The notes under the pieces: generated by a model
What the model was told of the DNA's origin: nothing
Database searches by the model: none
What the model saw: only the letters and a program-made list of their open reading frames with translations
Assembly (NCBI GenBank): GCA_963746995.1
Contig: CAVVDF010000006.1
Span: 15,403-79,402 of the forward strand
Length of the DNA stretch: 64,000 nt
Direction of reading: 5' to 3'
Source of the DNA: an uncultured Actinomycetes bacterium
Lineage (GTDB): Bacteria; Actinomycetota; UBA4738; HRBIN12
Program-made: the position numbers and the translations under genes
Shown: positions 52,179-64,000 of the stretch, in pieces
Position numbering within the stretch: position 1 is the stretch's first letter
How the letters are laid out: every line of letters starts with the position of its first letter

Positions 52179-53774
52179 TCAGTCCTCGGCGAGCGCGCGT
52201 GGGTGCAACAGCCCGTAGGTGTATGCGTCAACGAGCGCCTCCCACGAGGCCTCGATGATGTTCTCGCTGACGCCGACGGTGGTCCACTCACGCTCGCCGT
52301 TCGACATGTCGATCAGCACACGCACGACGGCGCCCGCGCCGACGCTCCGATCGAGTACACGCACGCGGAAGTCCTCGAGTTCCATGTCGTCCAGCTGGGG
52401 GTAGTCGTTCGCAAGCGCCTTTCGCAACGCGTTGTCGAGTGCGCCGACCGGCCCTTGGCCCTCGGCGCTCTCGATGTGACGCGTGCCCTTCGTCGTCACC
52501 TTGACGGTCGCCTCAGCGAGCGGATCCTCGCCGTCGCCGACGCGCTCCTCCACGTGCACGCGGTAGCTCTCGATCCGGAAGTACTCCTGGGACCAGCCGC
52601 CCGCCCGGCGAAGCAGCAGCTCGAGCGAGGCCTCCGCCAGATCGAACGTGTAGCCCTCGGACCCACGAGCCTTGAGCTCCTCGACGGCAACCGGGATCGC
52701 CGCGTCGTCGATCGGCAGGCCGAACTCGTCGGCTTTCATCCGGATCGACGCGCCGCCGCTGTAGTCGGAGGCGACCACGCCTCGGCGGTTACCGACGGCC
52801 TCCGGGGGCACGTGCTCGTACGCGCGGGACACGCGCGCGACCCCACTCGTGTGCAGTCCGGCCTTGTGCGTGAAGGCATACCGACCGGCGTAGGGCTGCC
52901 GCGCCTCCGGCGCGAGGTTCGCGATCTCAGCGACATAGTGCGCAAGCTCGGTGAGGTGTTCGACGGCGCCGGCGGGCAATGCATCGGTCACGCCGAGCTT
53001 CAGCGCGAGGTTTGCGGCGATCGGCACGATGTCGGCGTTGCCCGTGCGCTCGCCGTAGCCGTTGACCGTTCCTTGGACCTGCAGAACCCCAGCGTCCACC
53101 GCGACGAGCGAGTTCGCCACGGCACAGCCCGCGTCGTTGTGCACATGGATCCCGAGCGGCACGCCGGTCTGTTCCTTCACGGTCTTGACGACGCGGGCGA
53201 TGTCGAACGGCAGCATGCCCCCGTTCGTGTCGCACAGCACCAGACGTTCGGCGCCCGCCTCCTCCGCGGCCGCCAGCACCGACATCGCGAACGCGGGATC
53301 GCTCGCGTACCCATCGAAGAAGTGCTCCGCGTCGAAGAACACGCGCCGGCCCTGCCCGCGCAGGAAGGTGACGGAATCTCGCACCATCGCGACACCCTCG
53401 TTAAGGTCTGTGCGCAGCGCCTCGGTGACGTGCAGATCCCAGGCCTTGCCGACCAAGCAGACGACCTCGGTGCCGGCGTCCAGCAGGTCTCGGAGCGCCT
53501 GTGCGTCCTGGGTGCGTTCGCCCGCCCGCCTGGTCATCCCGAACGCGGTCAGCTCCGCGTGCTGCAGCGTCTCCTTCGTCGCCAGCTGGAAGAACTCCGT
53601 GTCGCGGGGGTTCGCCCCCGGCCAGCCGCCTTCGATGTACGGGAAGCCGATCTGGTCGAGCTTGTGCAGGATGCGCAGGCGATCCTCGACCGTGTACGAC
53701 AGATCCGCTTGCTGGGCGCCGTCGCGCAGCGTGGTGTCGTACAGCTCGACCGAGACCGGCATGCGGTCGCTCAC
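52179..53774 (-). CDS. cimA: (R)-citramalate synthase / long-form 2-isopropylmalate-synthase homologue
   Basis: 531 aa intact with YDTTLRDGAQQ and HVHNDAGCAVANSL, plus a C-terminal LeuA-dimer regulatory domain. Confidence 0.75.
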   Translation of the reverse strand: MSDRMPVSVELYDTTLRDGAQQADLSYTVEDRLRILHKLDQIGFPYIEGGWPGANPRDTEFFQLATKETLQHAELTAFGMTRRAGERTQDAQALRDLLDAGTEVVCLVGKAWDLHVTEALRTDLNEGVAMVRDSVTFLRGQGRRVFFDAEHFFDGYASDPAFAMSVLAAAEEAGAERLVLCDTNGGMLPFDIARVVKTVKEQTGVPLGIHVHNDAGCAVANSLVAVDAGVLQVQGTVNGYGERTGNADIVPIAANLALKLGVTDALPAGAVEHLTELAHYVAEIANLAPEARQPYAGRYAFTHKAGLHTSGVARVSRAYEHVPPEAVGNRRGVVASDYSGGASIRMKADEFGLPIDDAAIPVAVEELKARGSEGYTFDLAEASLELLLRRAGGWSQEYFRIESYRVHVEERVGDGEDPLAEATVKVTTKGTRHIESAEGQGPVGALDNALRKALANDYPQLDDMELEDFRVRVLDRSVGAGAVVRVLIDMSNGEREWTTVGVSENIIEASWEALVDAYTYGLLHPRALAED

Positions 53775-54823
53775 GCCGAGCCCTCGACGACGAGATCGCC
53801 GATCTCACTTGTCGTGAAGCCCATCTCGCCGGCACGCATGCTCTTCATCTGGCTCGTCGCCGCGCGGATCCCGCGGTCGACGCGTTCGGCGGCCTGGGTT
53901 TCGCCGAGCTGGCGCAGCAGCATCTCGAGCGCACCGATGGCGGCGAGCGGATTGATCGTGCCCTTGCCGGTCTCGCTCGGCGCCGTACCTCCGATCGGCT
54001 CGAACATCGACACGCCGTCGGGATTGATATTGCCGCCCGCGGCGATGCCCATCCCGCCTTGGATCATCGCGCCGAGGTCCGTGATGATGTCGCCGAACAT
54101 GTTGTCGGTGACGATCACGTCGAACCGCGACGGCGAGTCCAGGAAGTAGATGCACGCCGCGTCGACGTGCACGTAGTCGGTCTCGACGAGCGGGAACTCG
54201 GTTGCGACGTCGTCGACGACTCGCTGGTAGAGGTCGCCGGCGAAGGTCAACACATTCGTCTTGTGCACGAGGGTGAGCTGCCTGCGTCGAGCGGGCGAGG
54301 CGGCTAACTCGAATGCGTAACGGACGATCCGCTCCACTCCGTGCCGCGTGTTGATGGACTCCTGCACGGCAACCTCATGCTGCGTGCCCTTGCGATGGAA
54401 GCCGCCCGCGCCGCTGTACAGGCCTTCGGAGTTCTCACGGACGACGACGAGGTTGACGTCGTCCTCGGCGTGGCTCGGCACGAGCGTCTGCACGCCCGGA
54501 TACCGCACGACCGGGCGGAGGTTGACCCACTGATCGAGCTGGAACCGGATCTTCAAGAGCAGCTCGCGCTCGAGGACGCCGGGCTTCACCCGCGGATCGC
54601 CAACCGCGCCGAGGAAGATCGCGTCGCAGGCCGCGAGCTGCTCGAGGTCTGCGTCTGGGAGCACCTCGCCCGTCCGGAGGTACCGATCGGCGCCGAGATC
54701 GAAGTCGACGAGCTCGACCTCGAAACCGTTGCGGACGGCGTCGAGCACCTTGAGCCCCTCGCCGACGACCTCGGGTCCGGTGCCGTCGCCCCGGATCACC
54801 CCGATCCGGTACGAACCGGTCAC
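53771..54823 (-). CDS. leuB: 3-isopropylmalate dehydrogenase
   Basis: 350 aa intact with the IDH/IMDH signature [25 protein letters not shown]. Confidence 0.9.
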
Positions 54824-56418
54824 GGGGTGACCTCGTTCGTTTGTGCCTCGTCCTTCGCTTGTACCCGCAGCGCGCGGTTCACCGCCGCGAGGTACGCGCG
54901 CGCGCTCGCCTCGACGACGTCGGTCGCGACGCCGCGGCCCGTCACGCGCCGCCCGTCGATGTCGAGCTGCACCACGACGTCGCCGAGCGCGTCGGTGCCA
55001 CCGGTCACCGCCGAGACGTGGAAGTTCACGAGCCGGGCCTCGACGCCGGCGGCGCGCGCGATCGCGCCCATCACCGCGTCGATCAATCCGTCGCCGATCG
55101 CCGACTCCTCGATCGTCTCATCGCCCTTCGTGAGGTGGACCGTGGCCCGCGGCTGCAGATGCGTGCCGCCGCCCACGACCACCGATTCGAGAAGGAAGAC
55201 GTCAGCCTCCGCCGCGCCCAGTCTCCTCGGCGACGATCGCGGCCAGATCCTGGTCGGTGAGCTGAACCTTGCGGTCGGCGAGGTCCTTGAAGCGCGTGAA
55301 CGCGCGGTTGCAACTGCGCGTCGTCGAGCGTGATGCCCAGCTTGTCCAGCGCGTCGACGAACGCGTGCCGGCCGCTGTGCTTGCCCAGCACCAGCTGGTT
55401 GCCCTCGAGCCCGATCTCGAGCGGGTCCATGATCTCGTAGGTCGCGCGGTTCGCGAGCACGCCGTGCTGGTGGATGCCGCTCTCGTGCGCGAACGCGCTC
55501 GAGCCGACCACCGCCTTGTTCGGCTGCACGCTGTACCCGGTCATCATCGACACCAGCCGCGACGTCCGGGTGATCTCCTTGATGTTGAGGCCGTGCTGCA
55601 CGCCGAGGTGCTCGCCGACGCGTGCGGACGATCATCGCGATCTCCTCGAGCGAGCAGTTGCCGGCGCGCTCGCCGATCCCGTTGACGGCGACCTCGATCT
55701 GGCGAGCGCCGTTCTCGATGCCGGCCAGCGCGTTCGCGACCGCCAGACCGAGATCGTTGTGGCAGTGCGTCGAGATGACGACCTCGTCGGGCAGCTCCTG
55801 GCGCACGATCCGGACCAGCTCGCCGAACTCCGTCGGCGTCGCGTACCCAACCGTGTCGGGCACGTTGATCGTCGTCGCGCCGTGCTCGACGGCGAGCCGG
55901 TAAGCACTCGAGCAGGAACTCCAGCTCGGTGCGCGTCGCGTCCTGCGCGGAGAACTCGACGTCGTCGGTGTAGGTCTTCGCCAGCTTGACGTTGTCCTCG
56001 ATCGCCTGCAGCACCTGCTGGTTCGACATCTTCAGCATCGCGCCCATCTGGATGTCGCTCGTCGAGATGAAGGTGTGGATGCGCCAGCGATCGGCGCCTT
56101 TGAGCGCCTCTGCGGCGCGCTCGATGTCGCCGGTGGCCGTGCGCGCGAGCGCGGCGATCACGGGGCCGTGCACCGAATCGGCGATCTCGCGCACGGCTTC
56201 GAACTCGCCCTGCCCGAGATCGGGAACCCCGCCTCGAGGATGTCGACGTTCAGCCGGGCGAGTTGTTCGGCGATCTCGACCTTCTCGGCGCGGGTCAGCG
56301 CGATGCCGGGCGCTTGTTCGCCGTCGCGCAGGGTCGTGTCGAAGATCCGTACTACGTCTGATTGGCCTACCGCTTCGCTGCTTGAGCCCTGTACGTCGGG
56401 GTCTGCATCCGTACTCAT
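54820..56418 (-). pseudogene. leuA: 2-isopropylmalate synthase, reading frame broken about five times
   Basis: All LeuA segments are present in order across ORFs 56158-57435 (C-terminal part), 55544-56194, 54820-55863 and 55083-55601. They include [28 protein letters not shown] and the [13 protein letters not shown] region. Frame switches fall near 56200, 55890, 55620, 55300 and 55210. Confidence 0.8.
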
Positions 56419-56420
56419 GG

Positions 56421-57435
56421 TCAACTCGGCACTTTCTTCTCGGACTCCAACCAGGGCATCATCTGGCGCAGCTGCCGTCCCACGTCTTCGAGCTGGGAGG
56501 TCTGCGCCTGCTTGCGAAGTCGGAGGAACTCCGGGAAACCGGCGTCCGCCTCGCCGATCCACTTCTTGGCGAACGTGCCGTCCTGGATCTCGGCGAGGAT
56601 CTGCTCCATCGCCTGCGCGGGAATGCTCGTCGACCACCCGCGGGCCGCTCTGGTAGTCGCCCCATTCGGCGGTGTCGGAAACGCTGTAGCGCATCCACGA
56701 CAGGCCGCCCTCGTAGATCAGGTCGATGATCAGCTTCAGCTCGTGCAGACACTCGAAGTAGGCGATCTCCGGCTGGTAGCCGGCGGCCACCAGCGTGTCG
56801 AAGCCCGTTCTTGACGAGGCTCGGAGACGCCACCGCACAGGACGGACTGCTCGCCGAAGAGGTCGGTCTCGGTCTCTTCCTTGAAGCGTGGTCTCGATGA
56901 TGCCGGCGCGGGCGCAGCCGATCCCGGCCCCGTAGGCGAGCGCGCGGGCTTTCGCCGCGCCCGTCGCGTCCTGCTGCACCGCCACGAGACCGGGCGTGCC
57001 GATCCCTTGCTCGTAGGTACGGCGCACAAGGTGGCCCGGGCCCTTTGGCGCGATCATCGTCACGTCCACACCCGCCGGCGGCACCACCGTGGCGAAGTGG
57101 ATCGAGAAGCCGTGGGCGAACATCAGCATGTCGCCGTCCTCCAGGTTCGGGCGCGATGTCCACGCGTAGACGGCGCCGTGCGACGTGTCGGGCAGCAGGC
57201 ACATGATCACATCGGCGTCCGCGACGGCGTCGGCGGTGTCGAGCACCTTCAGCCCGGCCTCCTCGGCCTTGACGCGACTCGACGATCCGGGGCGAAGCCC
57301 CACGCGGACGTCATGCCCGCTGTCCTGCAGGTTCTGGGCGTGTGCGTGACCCTGCGAGCCGAACCCGAGCACCGCGATCTGCTGTCCGGCGAGCGCGTTC
57401 GGCTCGGTCTCCGCCTCGTAGTAGATCGTGGCCAT
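56421..57435 (-). pseudogene. ilvC: ketol-acid reductoisomerase, reading frame broken about three times
   Basis: The N-terminus has [17 protein letters not shown] intact. The middle ([19 protein letters not shown]) and C-terminus ([14 protein letters not shown]...) are in other frames, in ORFs 56736-57029 and 56421-56609. Confidence 0.8.
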
Positions 57436-57484
57436 GGTCGGCGTCCTTCCTTCCTCGTCGGTGCGTTCGCGGCCCAGGGTCGCC

Positions 57485-58013
57485 TCAGGCGTCGTTCGCG
57501 ACCTTGAGAGACCGGTCCTTGATACCGCGGCCGCCGCGGCCGAGCGCGATCCGCCCGGTGCGCGAGAGCTCGACGACGCCGAAGTCGCGCAGCAATCCGA
57601 GCAACGCCTCGAGCTTCTCGGACTTGCCGGCGGCCTCGAGCGTGAGCGTCGTCTTGCGTCACGTCGACGACGTTCACGCGGAACACGTCGGCGATCTCCA
57701 TCACGCGGGCTCGCCCGTCGCCGTCGGCGCGCACCTTGACGAGCATCAGCTCGCGTTCGACCGCCGAGCCGGGATCGTGCTCGAGGATCTTGATCACGTT
57801 CACCAGCTTGTTCAGCTGCTTCGTGACCTGTTCGAGCGGCTTGTCCTCGACATTGATCACGATCGTCATCCGCGAGATCCCCGGTTGCTCCGTCGCGCCG
57901 ACGGCGAGCGAGTCGATGTTGAACCCGCGCGCCGCGAACAGACCCGCGATCCGGGTGAGCACGCCGGGCCGGTCCTCGACGAGCACCGAGATCGTGTGCA
58001 GGTGGCCGTTCAT
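57485..58013 (-). pseudogene. ilvN: acetolactate synthase small (regulatory) subunit; one frame break
   Basis: The ACT domain is [28 protein letters not shown]. The C-terminal part [16 protein letters not shown]...KVANDA* is in another frame, with a switch near 57645-57668. Confidence 0.75.
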
Positions 58014-59758
58014 ACGATCGGCGCCTCCCCCGGGATCTCGTGGGGCGCGAACTCGGGCCCGAGGATGATGTCGTCGTTCGATGCGCCCGCGGGCACCATC
58101 GGGAACACGCCCTCGCGCGGGTCGACCCGGAAGTCGATCACGACACTGCGATCCTCCACCGCATACGCCTTCTCGATCGCCGCGTCGACCTCCTCGGGGC
58201 TCTCCACCCGGAACCCCACCGCCCCGTACGCCTCGGCGAGCCGCACGTAGTCGGGCGACGTCCGGATTGAGGTACACGCCCGAGTAGCGCTCGTCGAAGA
58301 ACAGCTCCTGCCATTGGCGGACCATCCCGAGATAGCCGTTGTTCAGGATCGCCGTGATGAACGGGATCTGTTCGGTGTTGCTCGTCGCGAGCTCCTGCGC
58401 CGTCATCTGGAAACAGCCGTCGCCGTCGATCGCGACCACCCGTTTGTCGGGCTGGCCGGTCTTCGCGCCGAGCGCCGCGGGCACGGCGAAGCCCATCGTG
58501 CCGAGCCCGCCGGAGTTGATCCAATGCCGCGGCCGCTCGAAGCGCCAGTACTGCGCACGCGTACATCTGGTGCTGTCCCACGCCCGGCCACGAGGATCGT
58601 GTCGTCGTCGGCGAAGTGCGCGCAGCCGCTCCACGCAATACTGCGGCTTGAGCCGGTCCGATTCCTGGCCGTAGCGCAGGGGGTACTGCTGCCGCCAGTC
58701 GGCGAGCTGTCCGAGCCAGGCGGACCGGTCGGGCGCGCCGTGCTCGCCCTGCCGCTTCGCCAGCTCGACGGCGAGCTTGCCGATCACGTCCTTGCAGTCG
58801 CCGACGATCGGCACGTCGGCGACCCGGTTCTTACCGATCTCGGCCGGGTCGACGTCGACGTGCACGATCTTCGCGTCGGGGGCGAAGGCCGCGAGCTTGC
58901 CGGTGACGCGGTCGTCGAACCGCGCGCCGAGCGCGACCAACAGATCGGCGCGCTGCATCGACGTGACCGCGGTGTAGTTCCCGTGCATGCCCGGCATGCC
59001 GAGGCAGAGCTCGTGCGAATCGGGGAACGCGCCCCGCGCCATCAAGGTCGTGACGACCGGGAGGCCGGCCGATCGTGGCGAGCTCGAGCAGCTCCGGGGG
59101 CGGCGTCGGCCTTGATGACGCCGCCGCCGACGTAGAGGACCGGCCGCTCCGCCGCGAGGATCAGCTTCACGGCCTCGGATACCTGGCGGTTGTTGCCCTT
59201 CGTCGTCGGCCGGTAGCCCGGCAGGTTGATCTTCTCGGGCCAACGTACTCGACGTCGGCGTTCAGCACGTCCTTCGGCAGGTCGACCAGCACGGGGCCGG
59301 GGCGGCCGGTGCTCGCGATGTGGAACGCCTCGCGTACGGTCTCGACGATGTCCTCGGCCCGCTTCACCAGGAAGTTGTGCTTCGTCACCGGGATCGTGAT
59401 GCCGGTGATGTCGGCTTCCTGGAAGGCGTCGTTGCCCACGACCGGCGTCGGCACCTGGCCGGTGAGCGCGACGATCGGCACCGAATCCATCTTCGCGTCG
59501 GCGAGCGGCGTCACGAGGTTGCGTCGCGCCCGGTCCGCTGGTCGCCATGCACACGCCGACCTTGCCGGTCGCCCAGGCGTAGCCCTCCGCCGCGTGGCCG
59601 GCGCCTTGCTCGTGACGGCAGAGCACATGGCGGATCGGCGACCGGTCGACCAGCGGGTCGTAGATCGGCATGCTGGCGCCGCCGGGGATGCCGAAGATGA
59701 CCTCGACGCCCTCCTGCTCGAGGGCCTTGAGGACGGCGTCCGCGCCCTTGACGGTCAT
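58010..59758 (-). pseudogene. ilvB: acetolactate synthase large subunit, reading frame broken at least six times
   Basis: All TPP-enzyme segments are present across ORFs 59042-60073, 59167-59628, 57249-59243, 58138-58638 and 58010-58246. They include GIPGG, GPGATNLVT and GLGTMGFAVPAALGAKTG...AIDGDGCFQM. Confidence 0.8.
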
Positions 59759-59760
59759 CC

Positions 59761-60073
59761 GCGCGGCCACCTCGCGCTGTTCGACGGGCCCGGTCTCGAC
59801 CCGGCGGACCTGCGCCTGCAGCCGATGCGCGAGGTTGCGGCACGCACGCTCGAACTCCCAGGGTGTCCAGTCGCGCCGACGCATCTGCAACACGTCGGGA
59901 ACCTCCTCGTCGCCCATGTCGAACCCGCCGCCCAGATACACCACCTCCGAGGAGAGGTACCGGTCGACCGTCGCACGGGTGGAGTTGTCGATCGCGTCGA
60001 CCGTCACTTGGCCGGGGCCCTCCCACAGAACGCTCGCGACGACGGTGCCGTCTCGCTCGAATTCGTACCGCAT
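59761..60073 (-). CDS. hypothetical small ORF between the ilv attenuator and ilvB (reads into the ilvB start with no intervening stop)
   Basis: AGGAAGGAG RBS, then ATG 60073 ([22 protein letters not shown]...). No homology recognised. It may be a separate small gene whose stop was lost through an indel, or a spurious extension. Confidence 0.3.
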
Positions 60074-60135
60074 GGTGGGTCTCCTTCCTCATGGTCCCCG
60101 CCGAAGGGTCGGGGCCCGGTTGTCGTTGCGGGATA

Positions 60136-60202
60136 CAAAAAGCCCCCCGCTGGGCGGAGGGCATCTGGCGCGGGGGTCTTCGGGCCCGTGGGCCCCCCGC
60201 GC
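60136..60202 (-). terminator. transcription attenuator of the ilv operon: mutually exclusive antiterminator and terminator hairpins, followed by a U-run
   Basis: The minus-strand transcript has region 1 gcgcggggg (which abuts the leader stop codon), region 2 cccccgcgc, and a terminator gccctccg-cccag-cggggggc followed by uuuuugu. Region 2 can pair either with region 1 or with the terminator 3' arm. Confidence 0.6.
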
Positions 60203-60253
60203 CTAGGCGATAAGTACGAGGACGCTGTGTCCGGTCACAGCCTTGTTCGACAT
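60203..60253 (-). CDS. ilvL: ilv operon leader peptide MSNKAVTGHSVLVLIA (16 aa), rich in Val/Leu/Ile regulatory codons
   Basis: ATG 60253 to TAG 60205-60203. The five consecutive branched-chain codons VLVLI sit immediately before the stop, which abuts attenuator region 1. A TTGACA -35 element, a 17-bp spacer and a cacact -10 lie just upstream at 60263-60291. Confidence 0.55.
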   Translation of the reverse strand: MSNKAVTGHSVLVLIA

Positions 60254-60301
60254 CGTTCAGACAGTGTGCGGCCCAACCGCCGAGGTGTCAACCTCGGGGC
60301 T

Positions 60302-62381
60302 TCACTGTGTCCCGCGCGAAGACTGCGGCGTGACGAAGAAGTCCTGGTGCATGCCCATCGCGTAGTGCCCGGGGAGGTTGCACACCACGGCGTCATGCCC
60401 CGGGGCGAGATCCAGGGTCAGCATCATCACCGCACCGGGCTCCATATCGCCGGTCTCCCCGACGTTGGTGACCCCCTTGGCGTCTTCGTCGATCCGGTTG
60501 GCCTCGCCCTCGAAGCTCACGATCGGGAATGCGGCGGCCGGGGTGTCGGTGGCGAGCACCACGAACTCATGCTTCTTCGCACCGTTGTTCGTCACGAGGA
60601 ACGAGACCTTGCCCTGGGGTGCGAAGGGTTGGGACAGATCGATCGCCATGTGGGTGGCGTCGGTCTCGGACAGCCCCACCTCGACGGGGGTGGCGCCGGT
60701 GGGCGTGACGAAGAAGTCCTGGTGCATGCCCATCGCGTAGTGCCCGGGGAGGTTGCACACCACGGCGTCATGCCCCGGGGCGAGATCCAGGGTCAGCATC
60801 ATCACCGCACCGGGCTCCATATCGCCGGTCTCCCCGACGTTGGTGACCCCCTTGGCGTCTTCGTCGATCCGGTTGGCCTCGCCCTCGAAGCTCACGATCG
60901 GGAATGCGGCGGCCGGGGTGTCGGTGGCGAGCACCACGAACTCATGCTTCTTCGCACCGTTGTTCGTCACGAGGAACGAGACCTTGCCCTGGGGTGCGAA
61001 GGGTTGGGACAGATCGATCGCCATGTGGGTGGCGTCGGTCTCGGACAGCCCCACCTCGACGGGGGTGGCGCCGGTGGGGCGTGACGAAGAAGTCCTGGTG
61101 CATGCCCATCGCGTAGTGCCCGGGGAGGTTGCACACCACGGCGTCATGCCCCGGGGCGAGATCCAGGGTCAGCATCATCACCGCACCGGGCTCCATATCG
61201 CCGGTCTCCCCGACGTTGGTGACCCCTTTGGCGTCTTCGTCGATCCGGTTGGGCCTCGCCCTCGAAGCTCACGATCGGGAATGCGGCGGCCGGGGTGTCG
61301 GTGGCGAGCACCACGAACTCATGCTTCTTCGGCACCGTTGTTCGTCACGAGGAACGAGACCTTGCCCTGGGGTGCGAAGGGTTGGGACAGATCGATCGCC
61401 ATGTGGGTGGCGTCGGTCTCGGACGAGCCCCACCTCGACGGGGGTGGCGCCGGTGGGGCGTGACGAAGAAGTCCTGGTGCATGCCCATCGCGTAGTGCCC
61501 GGGGAGGTTGCACACCACGGCGTCATGCCCCGGGGCGAGATCCAGGGTCAGCATCATCACCGCACCGGGCTCCATATCGCCGGTCTCCCCGACGTTGGTG
61601 ACCCCTTTGGCGTCTTCGTCGATCCGGTTGGGCCTCGCCCTCGAAGCTCACGATCGGGAATGCGGCGGCCGGGGTGTCGGTGGCGAGCACCACGAACTCA
61701 TGCTTCTTCGCACCGTTGTTCGTCACGAGGAACGAGACCTTGCCCTGGGGTGCGAAGGGTTGGGACAGATCGATCGCCATGTGGGTGGCGTCGGTCTCGG
61801 ACGAGCCCCACCTCGACGGGGGTGGCGCCGGTGGGCGTGACGAAGAAGTCCTGGTGCATGCCCATCGCGTAGTGCCCGGGGAGGTTGCACACCACGGCGT
61901 CATGCCCCGGGGCGAGATCCAGGGTCAGCATCATCACCGCACCGGGCTCCATATCGCCGGTCTCCCCGACGTTGGTGACCCCTTTGGCGTCTTCGTCGAT
62001 CCGGTTGGCCTCGCCCTCGAAGCTCACGATCGGGAATGCGGCGGCCGGGGTGTCGGTGGCGAGCACCACGAACTCATGCTTCTTCGCACCGTTGTTCGTC
62101 ACGAGGAACGAGACCTTGCCCTGGGGTGCGAAGGGTTGGGACAGATCGATCGCCATGTGGGTGGCGTCGGTCTCGGACAGCCCCACCTCGATCACCGGGA
62201 TCGGGGCGTCGTAGCCCTGGATCGGCGGCCCGCTCTGCGCCGCACCGCCGGTGTAGCCGGGGATCATGGCAACGGTCTCGCCACCGCCCTGGGTGTTGAC
62301 GGAGCAGCTCATCAGCAAGGCCACGATCCCCAGCACCAGCCACCCACGAGCGCGGAACCCGAGCTTCCCGATGCGCGTCAT
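60302..62381 (-). CDS. lipoprotein composed of five tandem, near-identical type-1 (blue) copper cupredoxin domains; the frame is interrupted by small indels in repeat copies 3 and 4
   Basis: AGGAGA RBS, then ATG 62379-62381, then lipobox LLMSCSVN. A 125-aa unit (...HMAIDL...AKKHEFVV...CNLPGHYAMGMHQDFFVTP) is repeated five times and carries the His/Cys/His/Met ligand pattern. The gene lies 9 bp downstream of the cytochrome c gene in the same orientation. Confidence 0.7.
60330..62190. repeat. tandem repeat of 5 x about 376 bp (periods 375, 376, 379, 376), more than 98% identical
   Basis: Unit starts (gtgacgaagaagtcctggtgcatgcccatcg) are at 60330, 60705, 61081, 61460 and 61836. The copies differ only by a few single-base indels or substitutions (ggttggcc vs ggttgggcc, gacagcccc vs gacgagcccc, cccttggc vs cctttggc). 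Confidence 0.9.
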
Positions 62382-62390
62382 CTCGATCTC

Positions 62391-62849
62391 CTATCCCCCG
62401 CTGGGCGTGCGCCAGTCGGGGCGCGCCGGCGCCGTGGCTTCCCAGGAGCGCATGTACACGACCATCGCTTGGATCTGCTCCTCGGTCAGCGGGCCGCCGT
62501 AGTCGCTCAGCCACGCAGGCATCTCGGTCCCCGGGATGCCGCCGCGCATGATGTCGCGGATCTGTGCGTCGGTGACCGTCGTCAGGAACTCCTGGGAGTT
62601 CAACGCGGGCGCGCTCACCCCTTCCCCTAGCGGGCCGTGACACACCGCGCAGTTCGCCGCCCACAATTGGGTGCCGGCGGCGATCTGTGCCTGCTCCTGT
62701 TCGGCGGTGGCATCGGCGCGGCGCGTGCCTTCCGTGAGCTTGTACAGCGGAAAGGACAACACCAGGATCAGGAGCAACCAGACGCCGGCGAGCTGCCACC
62801 GGCGTGTCGATCGAACGAGGGTCGGATCGTCGAGCGGGGGCGCGCTCAT
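62391..62849 (-). CDS. monoheme c-type cytochrome (membrane-anchored, class I)
   Basis: ATG 62849 overlaps the Rieske stop. An N-terminal TM helix, then heme-binding CAVCHG and a distal Met (GTEMPAW). 152 aa. Confidence 0.8.
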
Positions 62850-63487
62850 GGCGTACCTCCCGACGGCGAGGCGTCCGGAGACGCGCTTCCCGGCGAGGGA
62901 GAGACGTCGCCGGGTGGCGCTGGCGTTGCCGCCGCCTCGCCCTCCACGGACGTGCACGACGGGCCGTTCGCCTCATTCGGGCCGGTCAGAACGCCCTTCG
63001 CGGGACCGGGAAGCACCGTGGCCGTGTCAACCAGGACGCGGCCATCCTCGCTGATCGTGATCTTGAAGCGATCCATCCCCCGTGGTGCCGGTCCTTGGAG
63101 GTACTCGCCGATCAGGTTGTAGAAGCTGCCGTGGCACGGGCACTCGAACTGACCCGAGCTGTCGCAGAAGGGCACCCGACAGCCCAGGTGCGGGCATTTC
63201 TGATACAGCGCACGAAGGCCGCCTTGGTACTGCGTGACGTAGAACCGCCCGCTCAGGAAATACTGAACGGTGCCTTCCTCCGCGTACTCGTCCACGGGAC
63301 CGGCGTCGATGACGGAGCCGGCCCCTTGGCTCGACCGAGGATTCAAGATGTCGTAGCTCGTCCAAGCCCCCTCGGCGATCAGCACGACACCGAGGGCCTT
63401 CCAGGTGGTATTCAGGAACCGTCGCCTGTCGATCTCCGGTCCGGTCTCTGTCGCCGACGGCTCGTCAACATCGTTGGGATCAGGCAT
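62846..63487 (-). CDS. qcrA: Rieske [2Fe-2S] iron-sulfur subunit of a cytochrome bc-type complex (Tat signal)
   Basis: RRRFL twin-arginine motif. The two cluster boxes are CPHLGC and CPCHGS. GGAG RBS. Confidence 0.85.
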
Positions 63488-63488
63488 C

Positions 63489-63998
63489 TCAGAACTCCGC
63501 GTACGAGTGCTGCCACGGTGGGACCCAGCTCCAGCCGGGGCCCCGGAAGAACGTGCCCACGACCGTCAGCACGAGCGCGAGCACGGCGACGATCGTGAAG
63601 ACGGTGACGACGAACGTCCGAGCGCGAACCCGGTGGTCCGTCCCTCGGTCGATGTACGGGAGCGCGAAGAGCCAGACGAGCGCTGCTCCCGGGATCAGGA
63701 TGCCCGCCACCATGGGGGCGAAGTGCGAGAGCAACTCCTGCAGCCCTGCGAAGTACCACGGGGCCTTCGCGACCTCAGGCGTTGCGTTCGGGTTGGCGAT
63801 CTCCTTCAGCGGCGCGTTAAACACGATCGCGAGGACGAACACCACAGCGATCGTCGCCGCCGCCACGACCACGTGGCGGACAAGAAGATGGGGCCACGTG
63901 AAGACCTCGTCCTGGGGCTCGAGCCGGTCCTTCTGTTCGACCTCCTTCTCGACGACACCGAGCAGTCGGTAGCGAGGCTCCTGGTCACTCGTGGGCAT
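63489..63998 (-). CDS. cytochrome b C-terminal domain protein (b6f subunit IV / PetD-like), indicating a split b6-type cytochrome b
   Basis: ATG 63998 (3 nt from the window end). [15 protein letters not shown] aligns with the PetD EPAWPNDLL region, and [13 protein letters not shown] is the PEWY-type quinol-site motif. Three TM helices. The cytochrome b6 partner is presumably upstream, outside the window. Confidence 0.7.
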
Positions 63999-64000
63999 CG

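What the first reader, a model, noticed from the sequence alone, without database searches (positions are those of the whole stretch)
60136..60291. Classical attenuator with leader peptide MSNKAVTGHSVLVLIA upstream of the ilvBNC-leuA-leuB-cimA operon
A 16-codon minus-strand ORF (60253 to 60203) ends in Val-Leu-Val-Leu-Ile-Ala. Its stop abuts a G-rich segment (region 1) that can pair with region 2 (cccccgcgc). Region 2 can alternatively pair with the 3' arm of a terminator (gccctccg-cccag-cggggggc plus UUUUU). This is the textbook three-structure arrangement for ribosome-mediated attenuation by branched-chain amino-acid supply. A TTGACA, 17-bp spacer and cacact promoter sit 7-35 bp upstream of the ATG, which implies a leaderless or nearly leaderless leader transcript.
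Basis: partly seen in the sequence, partly recalled or inferred. Interest (0 to 1): 0.65.

Follow-up and report, generated by a model that had tools for sequence, protein, structure and literature searches.

The report
Leader-peptide attenuator before ilvB operon
A 16-codon mini-gene ending in Leu-Val-Leu-Ile, followed by two hairpins and a transcription stop signal, sits ahead of the branched-chain amino-acid genes; it is real and conserved, but it belongs to a regulatory device already known in actinobacteria and probably does not switch the textbook way.

Summary
That includes the TTGACA/17 nt/CACACT promoter, the 16-codon ORF MSNKAVTGHSVLVLIA, a hairpin (P1) that starts in the stop codon, and a 9-bp terminator with U5. 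This terminator is the only canonical one found in the 64 kb.

The module is conserved in 101 distinct sequences from uncultured soil Actinomycetota. P1 and the terminator show compensatory changes. The promoter keeps a fixed distance to the ATG and there is no Shine-Dalgarno sequence. The sensor codons CUC GUA CUU AUY are rare codons, and they recur in ilvB leaders across Actinobacteria.

It is therefore a member of the known actinobacterial ilvB leader-peptide attenuators. These have been studied experimentally in Corynebacterium glutamicum and Mycobacterium tuberculosis.

- **Antiterminator.** The proposed pairing (region 2 with the terminator 3' arm) forms in this window but is not conserved. 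It shows no covariation and uses the arm that is made last. No alternative pairing is conserved either.
- **First gene.** The first gene downstream is a conserved 105-aa ORF of unknown function, not ilvB.

The conserved geometry places a stalled ribosome flush against an intact P1, while a ribosome at UAG melts P1's 7-bp base. This favours the M. tuberculosis/C. glutamicum logic over the E. coli one.

The parts
60286..60291 (-). -35 hexamer TTGACA
   Evidence: Read directly. TTGAC lies 37-41 nt upstream of an in-frame ATG in 87 of 101 relatives and is visible in L001-L004.
60263..60268 (-). -10 hexamer CACACT, 17 nt after the -35 and 9 nt before the ATG
   Evidence: Read directly. The family consensus is TACACT at -15..-10 relative to the ATG, followed by a conserved GACC at -4..-1, with no Shine-Dalgarno. 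The inferred transcription start is 2-4 nt before the ATG; this is not measured.
60203..60253 (-). Leader ORF: 16 codons plus TAG, encoding MSNKAVTGHSVLVLIA
   Evidence...(S/T)xLVLI-x-stop is conserved in L001-L005 and L024, which were found through the protein downstream. It is also conserved in 101 distinct sequences. Peptide length is 16 aa in 51 and 17 aa in 18 of 87. The N-terminal part varies.
60209..60220 (-). Sensor codons CTC GTA CTT ATC (Leu12 Val13 Leu14 Ile15)
   Evidence: In three intact genes of this window, GTA is 0.8% of Val codons and CTT is 5.7% of Leu codons. In 54 actinobacterial ilvB leaders, GTA is 83% of Val codons in the ILV run against 1.6% in ilvB; CTT is 37% against 1.8%; ATT is 44% against 3.3%.
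60167..60203 (-). Hairpin P1, 13 bp, -26.5 kcal/mol. Its lower stem P1a is GGCGCGG (60203-60197) paired with CCGCGCC (60173-60167); the first G is the G of the TAG stop codon.
   Evidence: P1 is present in the MFE of all 101 relatives. P1a is 98% paired with compensatory changes at its two inner pairs. The two strands coevolve: same-sequence duplex -29.2 against swapped -24.6 kcal/mol, 0 of 2000 permutations as low.
60163..60166 (-). Spacer AGAU between P1 and the terminator
   Evidence: The spacer is 4-5 nt in 85 of 101 close relatives and 0-2 nt in 51 of 54 wider actinobacterial leaders.
60137..60162 (-). Intrinsic terminator: stem GCCCUCCGC / GCGGGGGGC (9 bp, loop CCA; 60162-60142) plus U5 (60141-60137)
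   Evidence: It is the only such site in the window. Six of its eight aligned pairs show changes on both sides; P1a plus terminator together are 95.8% paired, with 71 double-change cells against 15.2 +/- 7.8 in shuffles (0 of 500).
59755..60073 (-). First downstream gene: a ~105-aa ORF of unknown function (MRYEFERDG...), RBS GGAAGGAG at 60088-60081. In relatives its TGA overlaps the ilvB ATG (ATGA); in the window it is fused in frame to ilvB by one extra G near 59759-60.
   Evidence: There are at least 520 stand-alone homologues of ~105 aa, all labelled hypothetical. No Pfam match. The AF2 model has pLDDT 69 and no PDB fold match. This ORF follows the leader in 69 of 79 relatives that have enough DNA.
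52179..59758 (-). Structural genes ilvB (ATG 59758; split across frames), ilvN, ilvC (split), leuA (split), leuB (53771-54823) and a cimA-like gene (52179-53774)
   Evidence: Pfam: TPP_enzyme_N/M/C, ACT_AHAS_ss, KARI_N/C, HMGL-like + LeuA_dimer, Iso_dh, HMGL-like + HCS_D2 + LeuA_dimer. ORF map.

Best explanation
This is a ribosome-mediated transcription attenuator of the actinobacterial ilvB type.

**Proposed sequence of events**
1. A conserved sigma-70-like promoter starts the transcript 2-4 nt before the ATG, so the 16-codon uORF is translated without a Shine-Dalgarno sequence.
2. The uORF's only conserved codons, CUC GUA CUU AUC, are rare Leu/Val/Leu/Ile codons. They slow the ribosome when charged branched-chain tRNAs are scarce.
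3. One codon later comes UAG, whose G opens the 7-bp base of hairpin P1.
4. Four nucleotides after P1 lies a strong intrinsic terminator. By default it ends the transcript after about 120 nt, ahead of the small ORF, ilvBNC, leuA, leuB and the cimA-like gene.

**The switch** is whether the base of P1 is intact. A ribosome that reaches UAG has the whole 7-bp lower stem inside its mRNA channel. A ribosome held on any of the four sensor codons stops flush against an intact, or nearly intact, P1.

**Polarity.** I favour, at about 0.5, the reading proposed for M. tuberculosis ilvB1 and C. glutamicum ilvBNC: P1 intact (starvation) gives read-through, and P1 melted by the terminating ribosome (plenty) gives termination. 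About 0.3 goes to the classical polarity listed under rivals.

**Shown versus inferred.** Shown here: the parts, their conservation, the codon bias and the geometry. Inferred: the transcription start, stalling, regulated read-through, and above all how an intact P1 would defeat a terminator it does not overlap.
For: **Anatomy and uniqueness.**

**Conservation found through the downstream protein.** L001-L005 and L024 keep the peptide ending, the same codons, TAG-GCGCGG, P1 and the terminator.

**Family of 101 distinct sequences.** All fold as P1 plus terminator. Covariation is 95.8% paired, with 71 double changes against 15.2 +/- 7.8 in shuffles (0 of 500); slid controls give 42-62% paired. 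P1 strands and terminator arms each coevolve (0 of 2000 permutations).

**Promoter and leaderless layout.** Conserved in 87 of 101.

**Association.** The module stays with the small ORF plus ilvB (78 of 79). It does not travel with the upstream cupredoxin gene, which has no hit in 200 loci.

**Codon bias.** Rare codons are strongly enriched in ILV runs of 54 leaders that were found through IlvB similarity, not by nucleotide pattern.

**Geometry in those 54 leaders.**
- Last GUA to the first P1 pair: 10-11 nt in 41 of 54.
- Last ILV codon to P1: 7-8 nt in 38 of 54.
- P1 3' end to terminator: 0-2 nt in 51 of 54.

**Ribosome masks in the 101 close relatives.** P1a keeps 7, 7, 7 and 6 of 7 pairs with Leu12, Val13, Leu14 or Ile15 in the A site, and 0 of 7 at the stop codon. 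This uses the helicase boundary, about +11 from the P site, which I take from my own knowledge of Takyar et al. 2005.

**Literature.**
- M. tuberculosis ilvB1: a ~120-nt attenuated transcript and a translated uORF. Changing LVVI to AAAA abolishes induction. The authors' model is 'stall lets the anti-terminator form, ribosome at the stop masks it' (PMC13236596).
- C. glutamicum: control codons CUU and GUA, with the antiterminator abutting the terminator and competing for a boundary trinucleotide (PMC11857589).
- Leader peptides with terminators upstream of ilvB in Corynebacterium, Mycobacterium and Streptomyces (PMC1262725).
Against: - There are no transcript or expression data for this organism.
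- P1 and the terminator are not mutually exclusive. Both appear in the MFE of all 101 sequences. The terminator is 96-99% formed under every ribosome mask.
- In this sub-family P1 and the terminator are 4-5 nt apart. P1 extends into the first terminator nucleotides in only 28 of 101 sequences, and not in the window. The favoured polarity therefore lacks a demonstrated way for P1 to block termination.
- With the wider nuclease-footprint boundary (A site +12), a ribosome on Ile15 would leave only about 2 of 7 P1a pairs. That would fit the classical polarity instead.
- In S. coelicolor, mutating the candidate regulatory codons of the ilvB leader reportedly had no effect on regulation (as cited in PMC1262725).
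- The LVLI codons and TAGGCG are invariant in the 101-sequence set by construction of the search pattern. Their conservation rests on the sets found through protein similarity.
Confidence: 0.75

Rival explanations
1. Classical (E. coli trp/leu-like) polarity, which includes the first reader's scheme. P1 acts as an anti-antiterminator. A ribosome stalled on Leu14/Ile15 unzips the base of P1, and the freed strands cross-pair with the terminator arms. There are two versions: region 2 (CCCCCGC) with the 3' arm (GCGGGGG); or the G-run of region 1 with the 5' arm (GCCCUCCGCC), an alternative I found.
For: - Both cross-pairings are strong in this window. Duplex energies are -18.2 kcal/mol (2:4) and -19.7 (1:3), against -18.6 for the terminator itself.
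- With Leu14 or Ile15 in the A site and the +12/13 boundary, region 1b captures the terminator 5' arm before the 3' arm exists (gain of -7.3 and -5.7 kcal/mol). This capture disappears with the ribosome at the stop.
- With Ile15 in the A site, the 2:4 state is within 1.7 kcal/mol of the terminator state.
- Narunsky et al. also propose an antiterminator that uses the right shoulder of the terminator in Corynebacterium.
Against: - Neither pairing is a family property. 2:4 is 64% paired with 0 double changes, equal to shuffles. 1:3 is 59% paired with no significant covariation.
- Same-sequence and swapped-partner duplex energies are equal, at about -10 to -11 kcal/mol.
- Family median gains are only -1.5 and -2.8 kcal/mol, no better than with a shuffled arm. 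The window is the single strongest case for the Leu14 stall.
- No consensus alternative structure emerges from the alignment.
- 2:4 uses the arm made last, so the local hairpin should win kinetically (inference).
- The sensor codons lie outside region 1, at the distance where P1 is just tolerated.
Confidence: 0.25
2. The hairpin plus U-run is merely the terminator or insulator of the upstream cupredoxin-repeat gene (which ends at 60302), and the short ORF is a chance reading frame. On this view there is no amino-acid sensing.
For: The terminator lies about 140 nt downstream of the upstream gene on the same strand. Equilibrium folding predicts termination in every modelled state.
Against: - A conserved promoter sits between that gene and the ORF.
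- The cupredoxin gene is absent from all 200 related loci, while the leader stays with the small ORF and ilvB.
- The reading frame, the LVLI ending, the rare codons and the stop-in-stem geometry are all conserved.
Confidence: 0.03
3. The ~120-nt promoter-to-terminator unit is primarily a gene in its own right, encoding a trans-acting small RNA or a functional 16-aa peptide, and not only a cis attenuator.
For: It has its own promoter and terminator. Abundant short leader transcripts exist in M. tuberculosis. Leader peptides with trans functions are known elsewhere (peTrpL; title seen).
Against: - Only the last five or six codons of the peptide are conserved and the rest varies freely. This fits a codon sensor rather than a functional peptide.
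- The unit is always immediately upstream of the same operon.
- There is no Rfam match.
Confidence: 0.05
4. P1 is a ligand- or protein-binding element, such as a riboswitch (for example a ppGpp riboswitch, as in some Firmicutes ilvB leaders) or the target of an RNA-binding regulator.
For: The lower stem GGCGCGG/CCGCGCC is highly conserved and the spacer AGAU/AGAC recurs.
Against: - No Rfam family matches at gathering score or at E <= 10, apart from chance-level hits.
- The upper part and the loop of P1 vary freely in sequence and length.
- The Corynebacterium relative did not respond to ppGpp in in-line probing.
Confidence: 0.02

Closest known systems
Mycobacterium tuberculosis ilvB1NC uORF attenuator (Nat Microbiol 2026, PMC13236596)
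   Same: Both lie upstream of ilvB and have a short translated uORF with a run of Leu/Val/Ile codons that includes GUA. Both have a hairpin whose 5' strand follows the sensor codons and whose 3' strand ends next to a U-tract terminator, giving an attenuated transcript of about 120 nt. The GCGCG/CGCGC helix and CUC GUA are shared at nucleotide level with Mycobacterium loci.
   Different: In mycobacteria the uORF reads through the 5' strand of the hairpin (...GRRVGG-stop), and the hairpin abuts the terminator with a 0-2 nt spacer. Here the uORF stops at a UAG that forms the first pair of the hairpin, and the spacer is 4-5 nt. Regulation was tested there and not here.
Corynebacterium ilvBNC attenuator / ilvB-II motif (Morbach 2000 as cited; Narunsky 2023, PMC10272879; Ryabchenko 2025, PMC11857589)
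   Same: Both have a leader peptide translated without a ribosome-binding site, with the transcription start next to the start codon. Both use CUU and GUA as control codons, have two or three hairpins followed by a U-tract terminator, and serve ilvB.
   Different: In C. glutamicum the antiterminator and terminator share a boundary trinucleotide, and a third hairpin covers the start region. Here P1 and the terminator share no nucleotides. The ORF-internal hairpin seen in the window is not conserved (median z = -0.13). I had no covariance model of ilvB-II to test membership.
Streptomyces ilvB leader (MRTRILVLGKRVG; Seliverstov 2005, PMC1262725, citing Craster 1999)
   Same: The sensor motif AUU CUC GUA CUU, the GCGCG-type long-range helix ending at the terminator, and the strong CCCCUCG...CGAGGGG-U6 terminator are shared.
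   Different: The uORF continues through the helix, and an additional hairpin sits inside the long-range helix. Mutation of the regulatory codons reportedly had no effect in S. coelicolor.
Classical enterobacterial attenuators (trp, leu, ilvGMEDA, ilvBN); own knowledge of the Yanofsky model
   Same: Both have a leader peptide rich in the pathway's amino acids, with rare codons as in the E. coli leu leader. Both sense ribosome position and have an intrinsic terminator before the first structural gene.
   Different: In the classical cases the regulatory codons lie within region 1, regions 2 and 3 pair as the antiterminator, and the leader has a Shine-Dalgarno sequence. Here regions 2 and 3 are both C-rich and cannot pair. 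The sensor codons lie 8-17 nt upstream of the hairpin. The transcript is nearly leaderless.

Membership tests
Actinobacterial ilvB leader-peptide attenuator (Seliverstov 2005; M. tuberculosis ilvB1; C. glutamicum ilvBNC) | Located directly upstream of the ilvB operon on the same strand | tested here: met
   The leader lies 64 nt upstream of a small ORF that overlaps ilvB (ATGA), followed by ilvN, ilvC, leuA, leuB and a cimA-like gene. The same context holds in 78 of 79 relatives.
Actinobacterial ilvB leader-peptide attenuator (Seliverstov 2005; M. tuberculosis ilvB1; C. glutamicum ilvBNC) | Short uORF with a run of Ile/Leu/Val codons near its end | tested here: met
   The window has VLVLI at codons 11-15 of 16. 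LVLI is conserved in relatives found through the protein. ILV-run uORFs with a terminator are found in 54 of 80 actinobacterial ilvB loci.
Actinobacterial ilvB leader-peptide attenuator (Seliverstov 2005; M. tuberculosis ilvB1; C. glutamicum ilvBNC) | uORF translated without a Shine-Dalgarno sequence, with the transcription start at or next to the start codon | tested here: inconclusive
   The promoter hexamers sit at a fixed 9-nt distance from the ATG, and there is no SD, in 87 of 101. The transcription start itself cannot be measured with these tools.
Actinobacterial ilvB leader-peptide attenuator (Seliverstov 2005; M. tuberculosis ilvB1; C. glutamicum ilvBNC) | GC-rich hairpin plus U-tract terminator before the first structural gene | tested here: met
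   Covariation.
Actinobacterial ilvB leader-peptide attenuator (Seliverstov 2005; M. tuberculosis ilvB1; C. glutamicum ilvBNC) | Hairpin whose 5' strand follows the sensor codons and whose 3' strand ends next to, or overlaps, the terminator 5' arm (the 'anti-terminator' of the M. tuberculosis and C. glutamicum models) | tested here: inconclusive
   P1 is present and conserved. However, it lies 4 nt from the terminator and shares no nucleotide with it, so both form together in all 101 MFE folds.
Actinobacterial ilvB leader-peptide attenuator (Seliverstov 2005; M. tuberculosis ilvB1; C. glutamicum ilvBNC) | Read-through rises on branched-chain amino-acid limitation and depends on the ILV codons | not testable with these tools
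   This needs a reporter fusion or RNA end mapping. It has been shown for M. tuberculosis and C. glutamicum.
Classical three-structure attenuator (E. coli trp type) | Mutually exclusive antiterminator formed by region 2 with the terminator 5' arm (region 3) | tested here: not met
   Regions 2 (CCCCCGCGCC) and 3 (GCCCUCCGC) are both C-rich and cannot pair. The substitutes 2:4 and 1:3 are not conserved.
Classical three-structure attenuator (E. coli trp type) | Regulatory codons positioned so that the stalled ribosome covers region 1 | tested here: not met
   The sensor codons start 8-17 nt upstream of the first P1 pair. P1a keeps 6-7 of 7 pairs for all four stall positions with the helicase boundary. 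With the footprint boundary it keeps 7, 7, 5 and 2 pairs. The geometry is conserved in 54 leaders.
Rfam families (including the ppGpp/ykkC-type riboswitches and the T-box) | Match to a curated covariance model | tested here: not met
   No match at gathering score in the whole window. Only chance-level hits (E 0.5-8, 12-19 bits against cut-offs of 42-90) in 59900-60500.

The most novel reading that the evidence does not exclude
In this stop-in-stem sub-family there is no RNA antiterminator at all. P1 and the terminator are compatible in free RNA, and no alternative pairing is conserved. What is conserved is geometry: a ribosome stalled on the rare codons sits flush against the base of P1, and the other strand of P1 leads within a few nucleotides into the terminator 5' arm.

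P1 could therefore act as a rigid bridge. [quoted passage not shown] The bottom terminator pairs would then be blocked, sterically or kinetically, from forming in the RNA-polymerase exit channel. A ribosome that reaches UAG melts P1 and releases that constraint.
Probability: 0.12. Interest if true: 0.7.

Novelty: new member of a known kind. Interest (0 to 1): 0.3.

Why it matters
**For annotation.** The result gives a conserved promoter, uORF and terminator, and therefore the operon start, for a clade of uncultured soil Actinomycetota. It also shows that a 105-aa protein of unknown function is co-regulated with, and translationally coupled to, acetolactate synthase.

**For the field.** Actinobacterial ilvB attenuators are only now being dissected in M. 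tuberculosis and C. glutamicum, and their mechanism is called unclear in the papers I read. This family offers more than 100 natural variants in which the hairpin and the terminator do not overlap. Together with the pan-actinobacterial rules found here, it makes the question 'what actually prevents termination?' sharply testable. Those rules are:
- GUA makes up 83% of Val sensor codons.
- GUA lies 10-11 nt before the hairpin.
- The hairpin ends 0-5 nt before the terminator.

**Limit.** The kind of element itself is not new.

Tried and rejected
- **Rfam.** A gathering-score scan of the whole window and a permissive scan of the locus gave nothing meaningful.
Tested by column counts, partner swapping and constrained folding. 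It is not conserved.
- **My own alternative (1:3).** The G-run of region 1 pairing with the terminator 5' arm looked attractive in the window. It fails the same family tests, and the window is an outlier because of its G6/C5 runs.
- **Consensus folding of truncated or masked alignments.** This was meant to reveal any other alternative helix and found none.
- **Extension of P1 into the terminator base** (the C. glutamicum 'boundary trinucleotide' idea). It reaches the terminator in only 28 of 101 sequences, and not in the window.
- **A conserved hairpin within the ORF that pairs the AUG with the LVLI codons** (an H1-like element). It is present in the window's MFE but not conserved (median z = -0.13).
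- **Terminator belonging to the upstream gene.** Rejected on context.
- **Function of the small ORF.** Pfam, an AF2 model and a PDB Foldseek search all gave nothing.
- **Not done.** I did not build a covariance model, and I did not resolve the organism beyond 'uncultured Actinomycetota/Actinomycetes MAGs'.
Full report
**1. What is in the sequence**

On the minus strand the region reads, in order:
- TTGACA at 60291-60286, a 17-nt spacer, and CACACT at 60268-60263.
- Nine nucleotides, then ATG at 60253.
- A 16-codon ORF, MSNKAVTGHSVLVLIA, ending in TAG at 60205-60203.
- A G-rich strand, GGCGCGGGGGGCC, starting with the G of TAG. It pairs with CCCCCGCGCC (60176-60167) to form hairpin P1.
- The spacer AGAU.
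- A 9-bp, 8-GC hairpin at 60162-60142, followed by UUUUU at 60141-60137.

The MFE fold of the transcript is P1 plus terminator, with an additional hairpin inside the ORF. It has -61.2 kcal/mol and z = -2.9. The terminator scan calls this site. In a scan of the whole window, on both strands, it is the only hairpin of <= -12 kcal/mol lying directly before a run of five or more T. The ILV-rich short ORF is 64 nt upstream of that run.

**2. What lies downstream**

The next start codon is ATG 60073, behind GGAAGGAG. It opens a reading frame whose first ~105 residues have no Pfam match. The frame then runs into the N-terminal TPP domain of IlvB.

In five relatives these 100-105 residues form a separate gene. 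Its TGA overlaps the ilvB ATG, as ...CGATGA. The window has one extra G there, which fuses the two frames.

The small protein has at least 520 stand-alone homologues of ~105 aa, all labelled hypothetical. Its AF2 model has pLDDT 69 and no PDB fold match.

After it come ilvB, ilvN, ilvC, leuA, leuB and a cimA-like synthase. ilvB, ilvC and leuA are each split across reading frames in this window. That suggests indel errors in the assembly or decay of the genes; I cannot tell which.

**3. Conservation**

A genome scan with the downstream protein returned 80 actinobacterial ilvB loci.

*Close relatives.* The six closest (L001-L005 and L024, all uncultured Actinomycetota) keep the following:
- a peptide ending (S/T)xLVLI-x-stop;
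- the identical codons CTC GTA CTT ATY;
- TAG-GCG at the hairpin base;
- a P1 with different but complementary inner sequences;
- a terminator with compensatory differences.

*Wider set.* Most other loci, including Streptomyces, Mycobacterium, Nocardia and Actinomadura, have an ILV-run uORF followed by a terminator. This matches the description by Seliverstov et al. 2005.

*Metagenome family.* A metagenome scan with CTCGTACTTATYNNNTAGGCG gave 120 more stretches. I aligned 101 distinct full-length leaders.
- All 101 fold as P1 plus terminator.
- On the alignment the two helices are 95.8% paired. They have 71 cells changed on both sides, against 15.2 +/- 7.8 in shuffles (0 of 500). Controls with the partner slid by 1-3 columns give 42-62% paired.
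- P1 strands and terminator arms each fit their own partner better than partners from other sequences (0 of 2000 permutations).

*Caveat.* The LVLI codons and TAGGCG are fixed in this set by the search pattern. Their conservation rests on the loci found through protein similarity.

**4. Promoter and leaderless layout**

In 87 of 101 sequences TTGAC lies 37-41 nt upstream of an in-frame ATG. The 17 nt before the ATG read (C)(C)TACACT-G-N-C-N-N-GACC, and no Shine-Dalgarno sequence is present.

A start 6-8 nt after the -10 hexamer would leave a 2-4 nt leader. The same layout is documented for C. glutamicum, where the start of transcription is one nucleotide from the leader's start codon (Morbach 2000, as cited).

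**5. Sensor codons**

In three intact genes of the window, GTA is 0.8% of Val codons, CTT is 5.7% of Leu codons, and ATT is 0% of Ile codons.

Across 54 leaders found through IlvB similarity, codon use in the ILV runs compares with the ilvB coding sequence as follows:

| Codon | Share in leader ILV runs | Share in ilvB CDS |
|---|---|---|
| GTA (Val) | 83% | 1.6% |
| CTT (Leu) | 37% | 1.8% |
| ATT (Ile) | 44% | 3.3% |

CUC GUA CUU recurs from Streptomyces to the window's clade. The C. glutamicum and M. tuberculosis papers single out CUU and GUA as control codons. I did not see this enrichment quantified across the phylum in the papers I read.

**6.

The pairing CCCCCGC (region 2) with GCGGGGG (terminator 3' arm) exists in the window, with a duplex energy of -18.2 kcal/mol. 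Across the family, however:
- the same columns are only 64% paired, with no compensatory change, equal to shuffles;
- same-sequence and swapped-partner duplex energies are equal, at about -11 kcal/mol;
- with the P1 5' strand masked, the terminator still wins by a median of 9-12 kcal/mol.

The pairing also uses the arm that emerges last, so it cannot form ahead of the terminator (inference).

I found a second candidate that uses the 5' arm: the G-run of region 1 pairing with GCCCUCCGCC. In the window this is -19.7 kcal/mol as a duplex. With Leu14 or Ile15 in the A site it gains -7.3 or -5.7 kcal/mol before the 3' arm exists, and it vanishes with the ribosome at the stop. It fails the same family tests. 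The window is the extreme case, because of its G6 and C5 runs.

Three further checks were negative:
- Consensus folding of masked or truncated alignments shows no other helix.
- Extension of P1 into the terminator base occurs in only 28 of 101 sequences, and not in the window.
- The ORF-internal hairpin is not conserved.

In equilibrium folds the terminator forms under every ribosome position. No conserved RNA antiterminator is detectable. 'Textbook three-structure arrangement' is therefore not an accurate description.

**7. What is conserved instead: geometry**

In the 54 wider leaders:
- the last GUA lies 10-11 nt before the first P1 pair in 41 of 54;
- the last ILV codon lies 7-8 nt before it in 38 of 54;
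- P1 ends 0-2 nt before the terminator in 51 of 54.

In the window's sub-family the spacer is 4-5 nt.

The stop codon is placed in one of two ways. It is either the first pair of P1, as in the window and also in Nakamurella, Aeromicrobium, Propionimicrobium and Terrabacter loci. Or it lies 10-15 nt further on, so that the ORF reads through the 5' strand of P1.

I took the ribosome's unwinding point as about +11 from the P site (own knowledge: Takyar, Hickerson and Noller 2005). On that basis P1's 7-bp base keeps 7, 7, 7 and 6 pairs with Leu12, Val13, Leu14 or Ile15 in the A site. It keeps 3 pairs with codon 16 and 0 pairs with UAG in the A site. With the wider nuclease-footprint boundary the numbers are 7, 7, 5, 2, 0 and 0.

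So a stalled ribosome stops at, or just inside, the base of P1, and a terminating ribosome removes the base entirely.

**8. Most likely mechanism**

The element is a ribosome-mediated attenuator of the actinobacterial ilvB type (confidence about 0.75-0.8).

The geometry matches the logic proposed for M. tuberculosis ilvB1: stalling lets the hairpin after the sensor codons form, and a ribosome at the stop codon masks it so that the terminator forms. In that system, changing LVVI to AAAA abolishes induction. The geometry also matches C. glutamicum, where the antiterminator abuts the terminator. On this basis I favour 'P1 intact = read-through' at about 0.5, against about 0.3 for the classical polarity.

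The weak point is that here P1 and the terminator share no nucleotides and coexist in all folds. How P1 would defeat the terminator is not shown. It could be steric or kinetic: a ribosome parked at the P1 base sits only a few nucleotides of RNA away from the terminator 5' arm. This is speculation, and I list it as the novel case.

**9. Comparison and novelty**

Leader peptides with terminators upstream of actinobacterial ilvB have been known since 2005. Leaderless translation of the C. glutamicum leader has been known since 2000 (as cited). Experimental dissection exists for C. glutamicum and M. tuberculosis.

The window's element shares with these the position, the sensor motif, the GCGCG helix and the terminator. 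It is a new member of this kind, in an architectural sub-type (UAG inside the stem base, 4-5 nt spacer, a small unknown ORF as first gene) that is not in Rfam. It is a sound annotation and a useful comparative data set, but not a surprise.

Noticed in passing
window 59755-60073 (-): A conserved ~105-aa ORF of unknown function (MRYEFERDG...[14 protein letters not shown]...) is the first gene after the attenuator and overlaps the ilvB start (ATGA) in relatives. It has at least 520 stand-alone homologues, no Pfam match and no PDB fold match. It follows the leader in 69 of 79 related loci.
   Followed up: partly
window 54820-60073 (-), e.g. 59759-59760: ilvB, ilvC and leuA are each split across two or three reading frames. 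A single extra G fuses the small ORF to ilvB. leuB and the cimA-like gene are intact. This looks like indel errors of the assembly, or else pseudogenes.
   Followed up: partly
window 60327-62191: Five tandem copies of a 375-bp unit, 99% identical, encode repeated cupredoxin (SoxE/sulfocyanin-like) domains in the gene just upstream of the leader's promoter. This is either a real multi-domain copper protein or an assembly artefact. No homologue is present next to the leader in any related locus.
   Followed up: partly
L001-L080 (upstream of the IlvB match): Across Actinobacteria the ILV runs of ilvB leaders use rare codons almost exclusively for Val (GTA 83% against 1.6% in ilvB) and often for Leu and Ile (CTT 37%, ATT 44%). 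The motif CUC GUA CUU is shared from Streptomyces to uncultured clades. GUA sits 10-11 nt before the hairpin in 41 of 54.
   Followed up: yes
window 60129-60136 (-) and alignment A1 columns after the U-run: The bases just after the U-run are conserved: (G/C)U(A/U)(C/U)CCC, with T126, C129 and C130 at >= 90%. This C-run could pair with the G-run of the terminator 3' arm in read-through transcripts. Its function is unknown.
   Followed up: no
window ~60096-60115 (-); L001 and L003 at the same place: A further small hairpin, CCCCG-loop-CGGGG, lies between the terminator and the RBS of the small ORF. It is shared with L001 and L003 with different loops and is absent in L002 and L004.
   Followed up: no
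window, both strands: Only one hairpin-plus-T5 terminator (<= -12 kcal/mol) exists in 64 kb of this high-GC sequence, and it is the attenuator's. Ordinary gene ends here evidently do not use canonical L-shaped terminators.
   Followed up: no
window 62391-64000 (-): ORFs upstream of the cupredoxin repeats look like the cytochrome bc1 genes: a c-type cytochrome with CxxCH, a Rieske protein and cytochrome b. This was judged by eye from the translations only.
   Followed up: no
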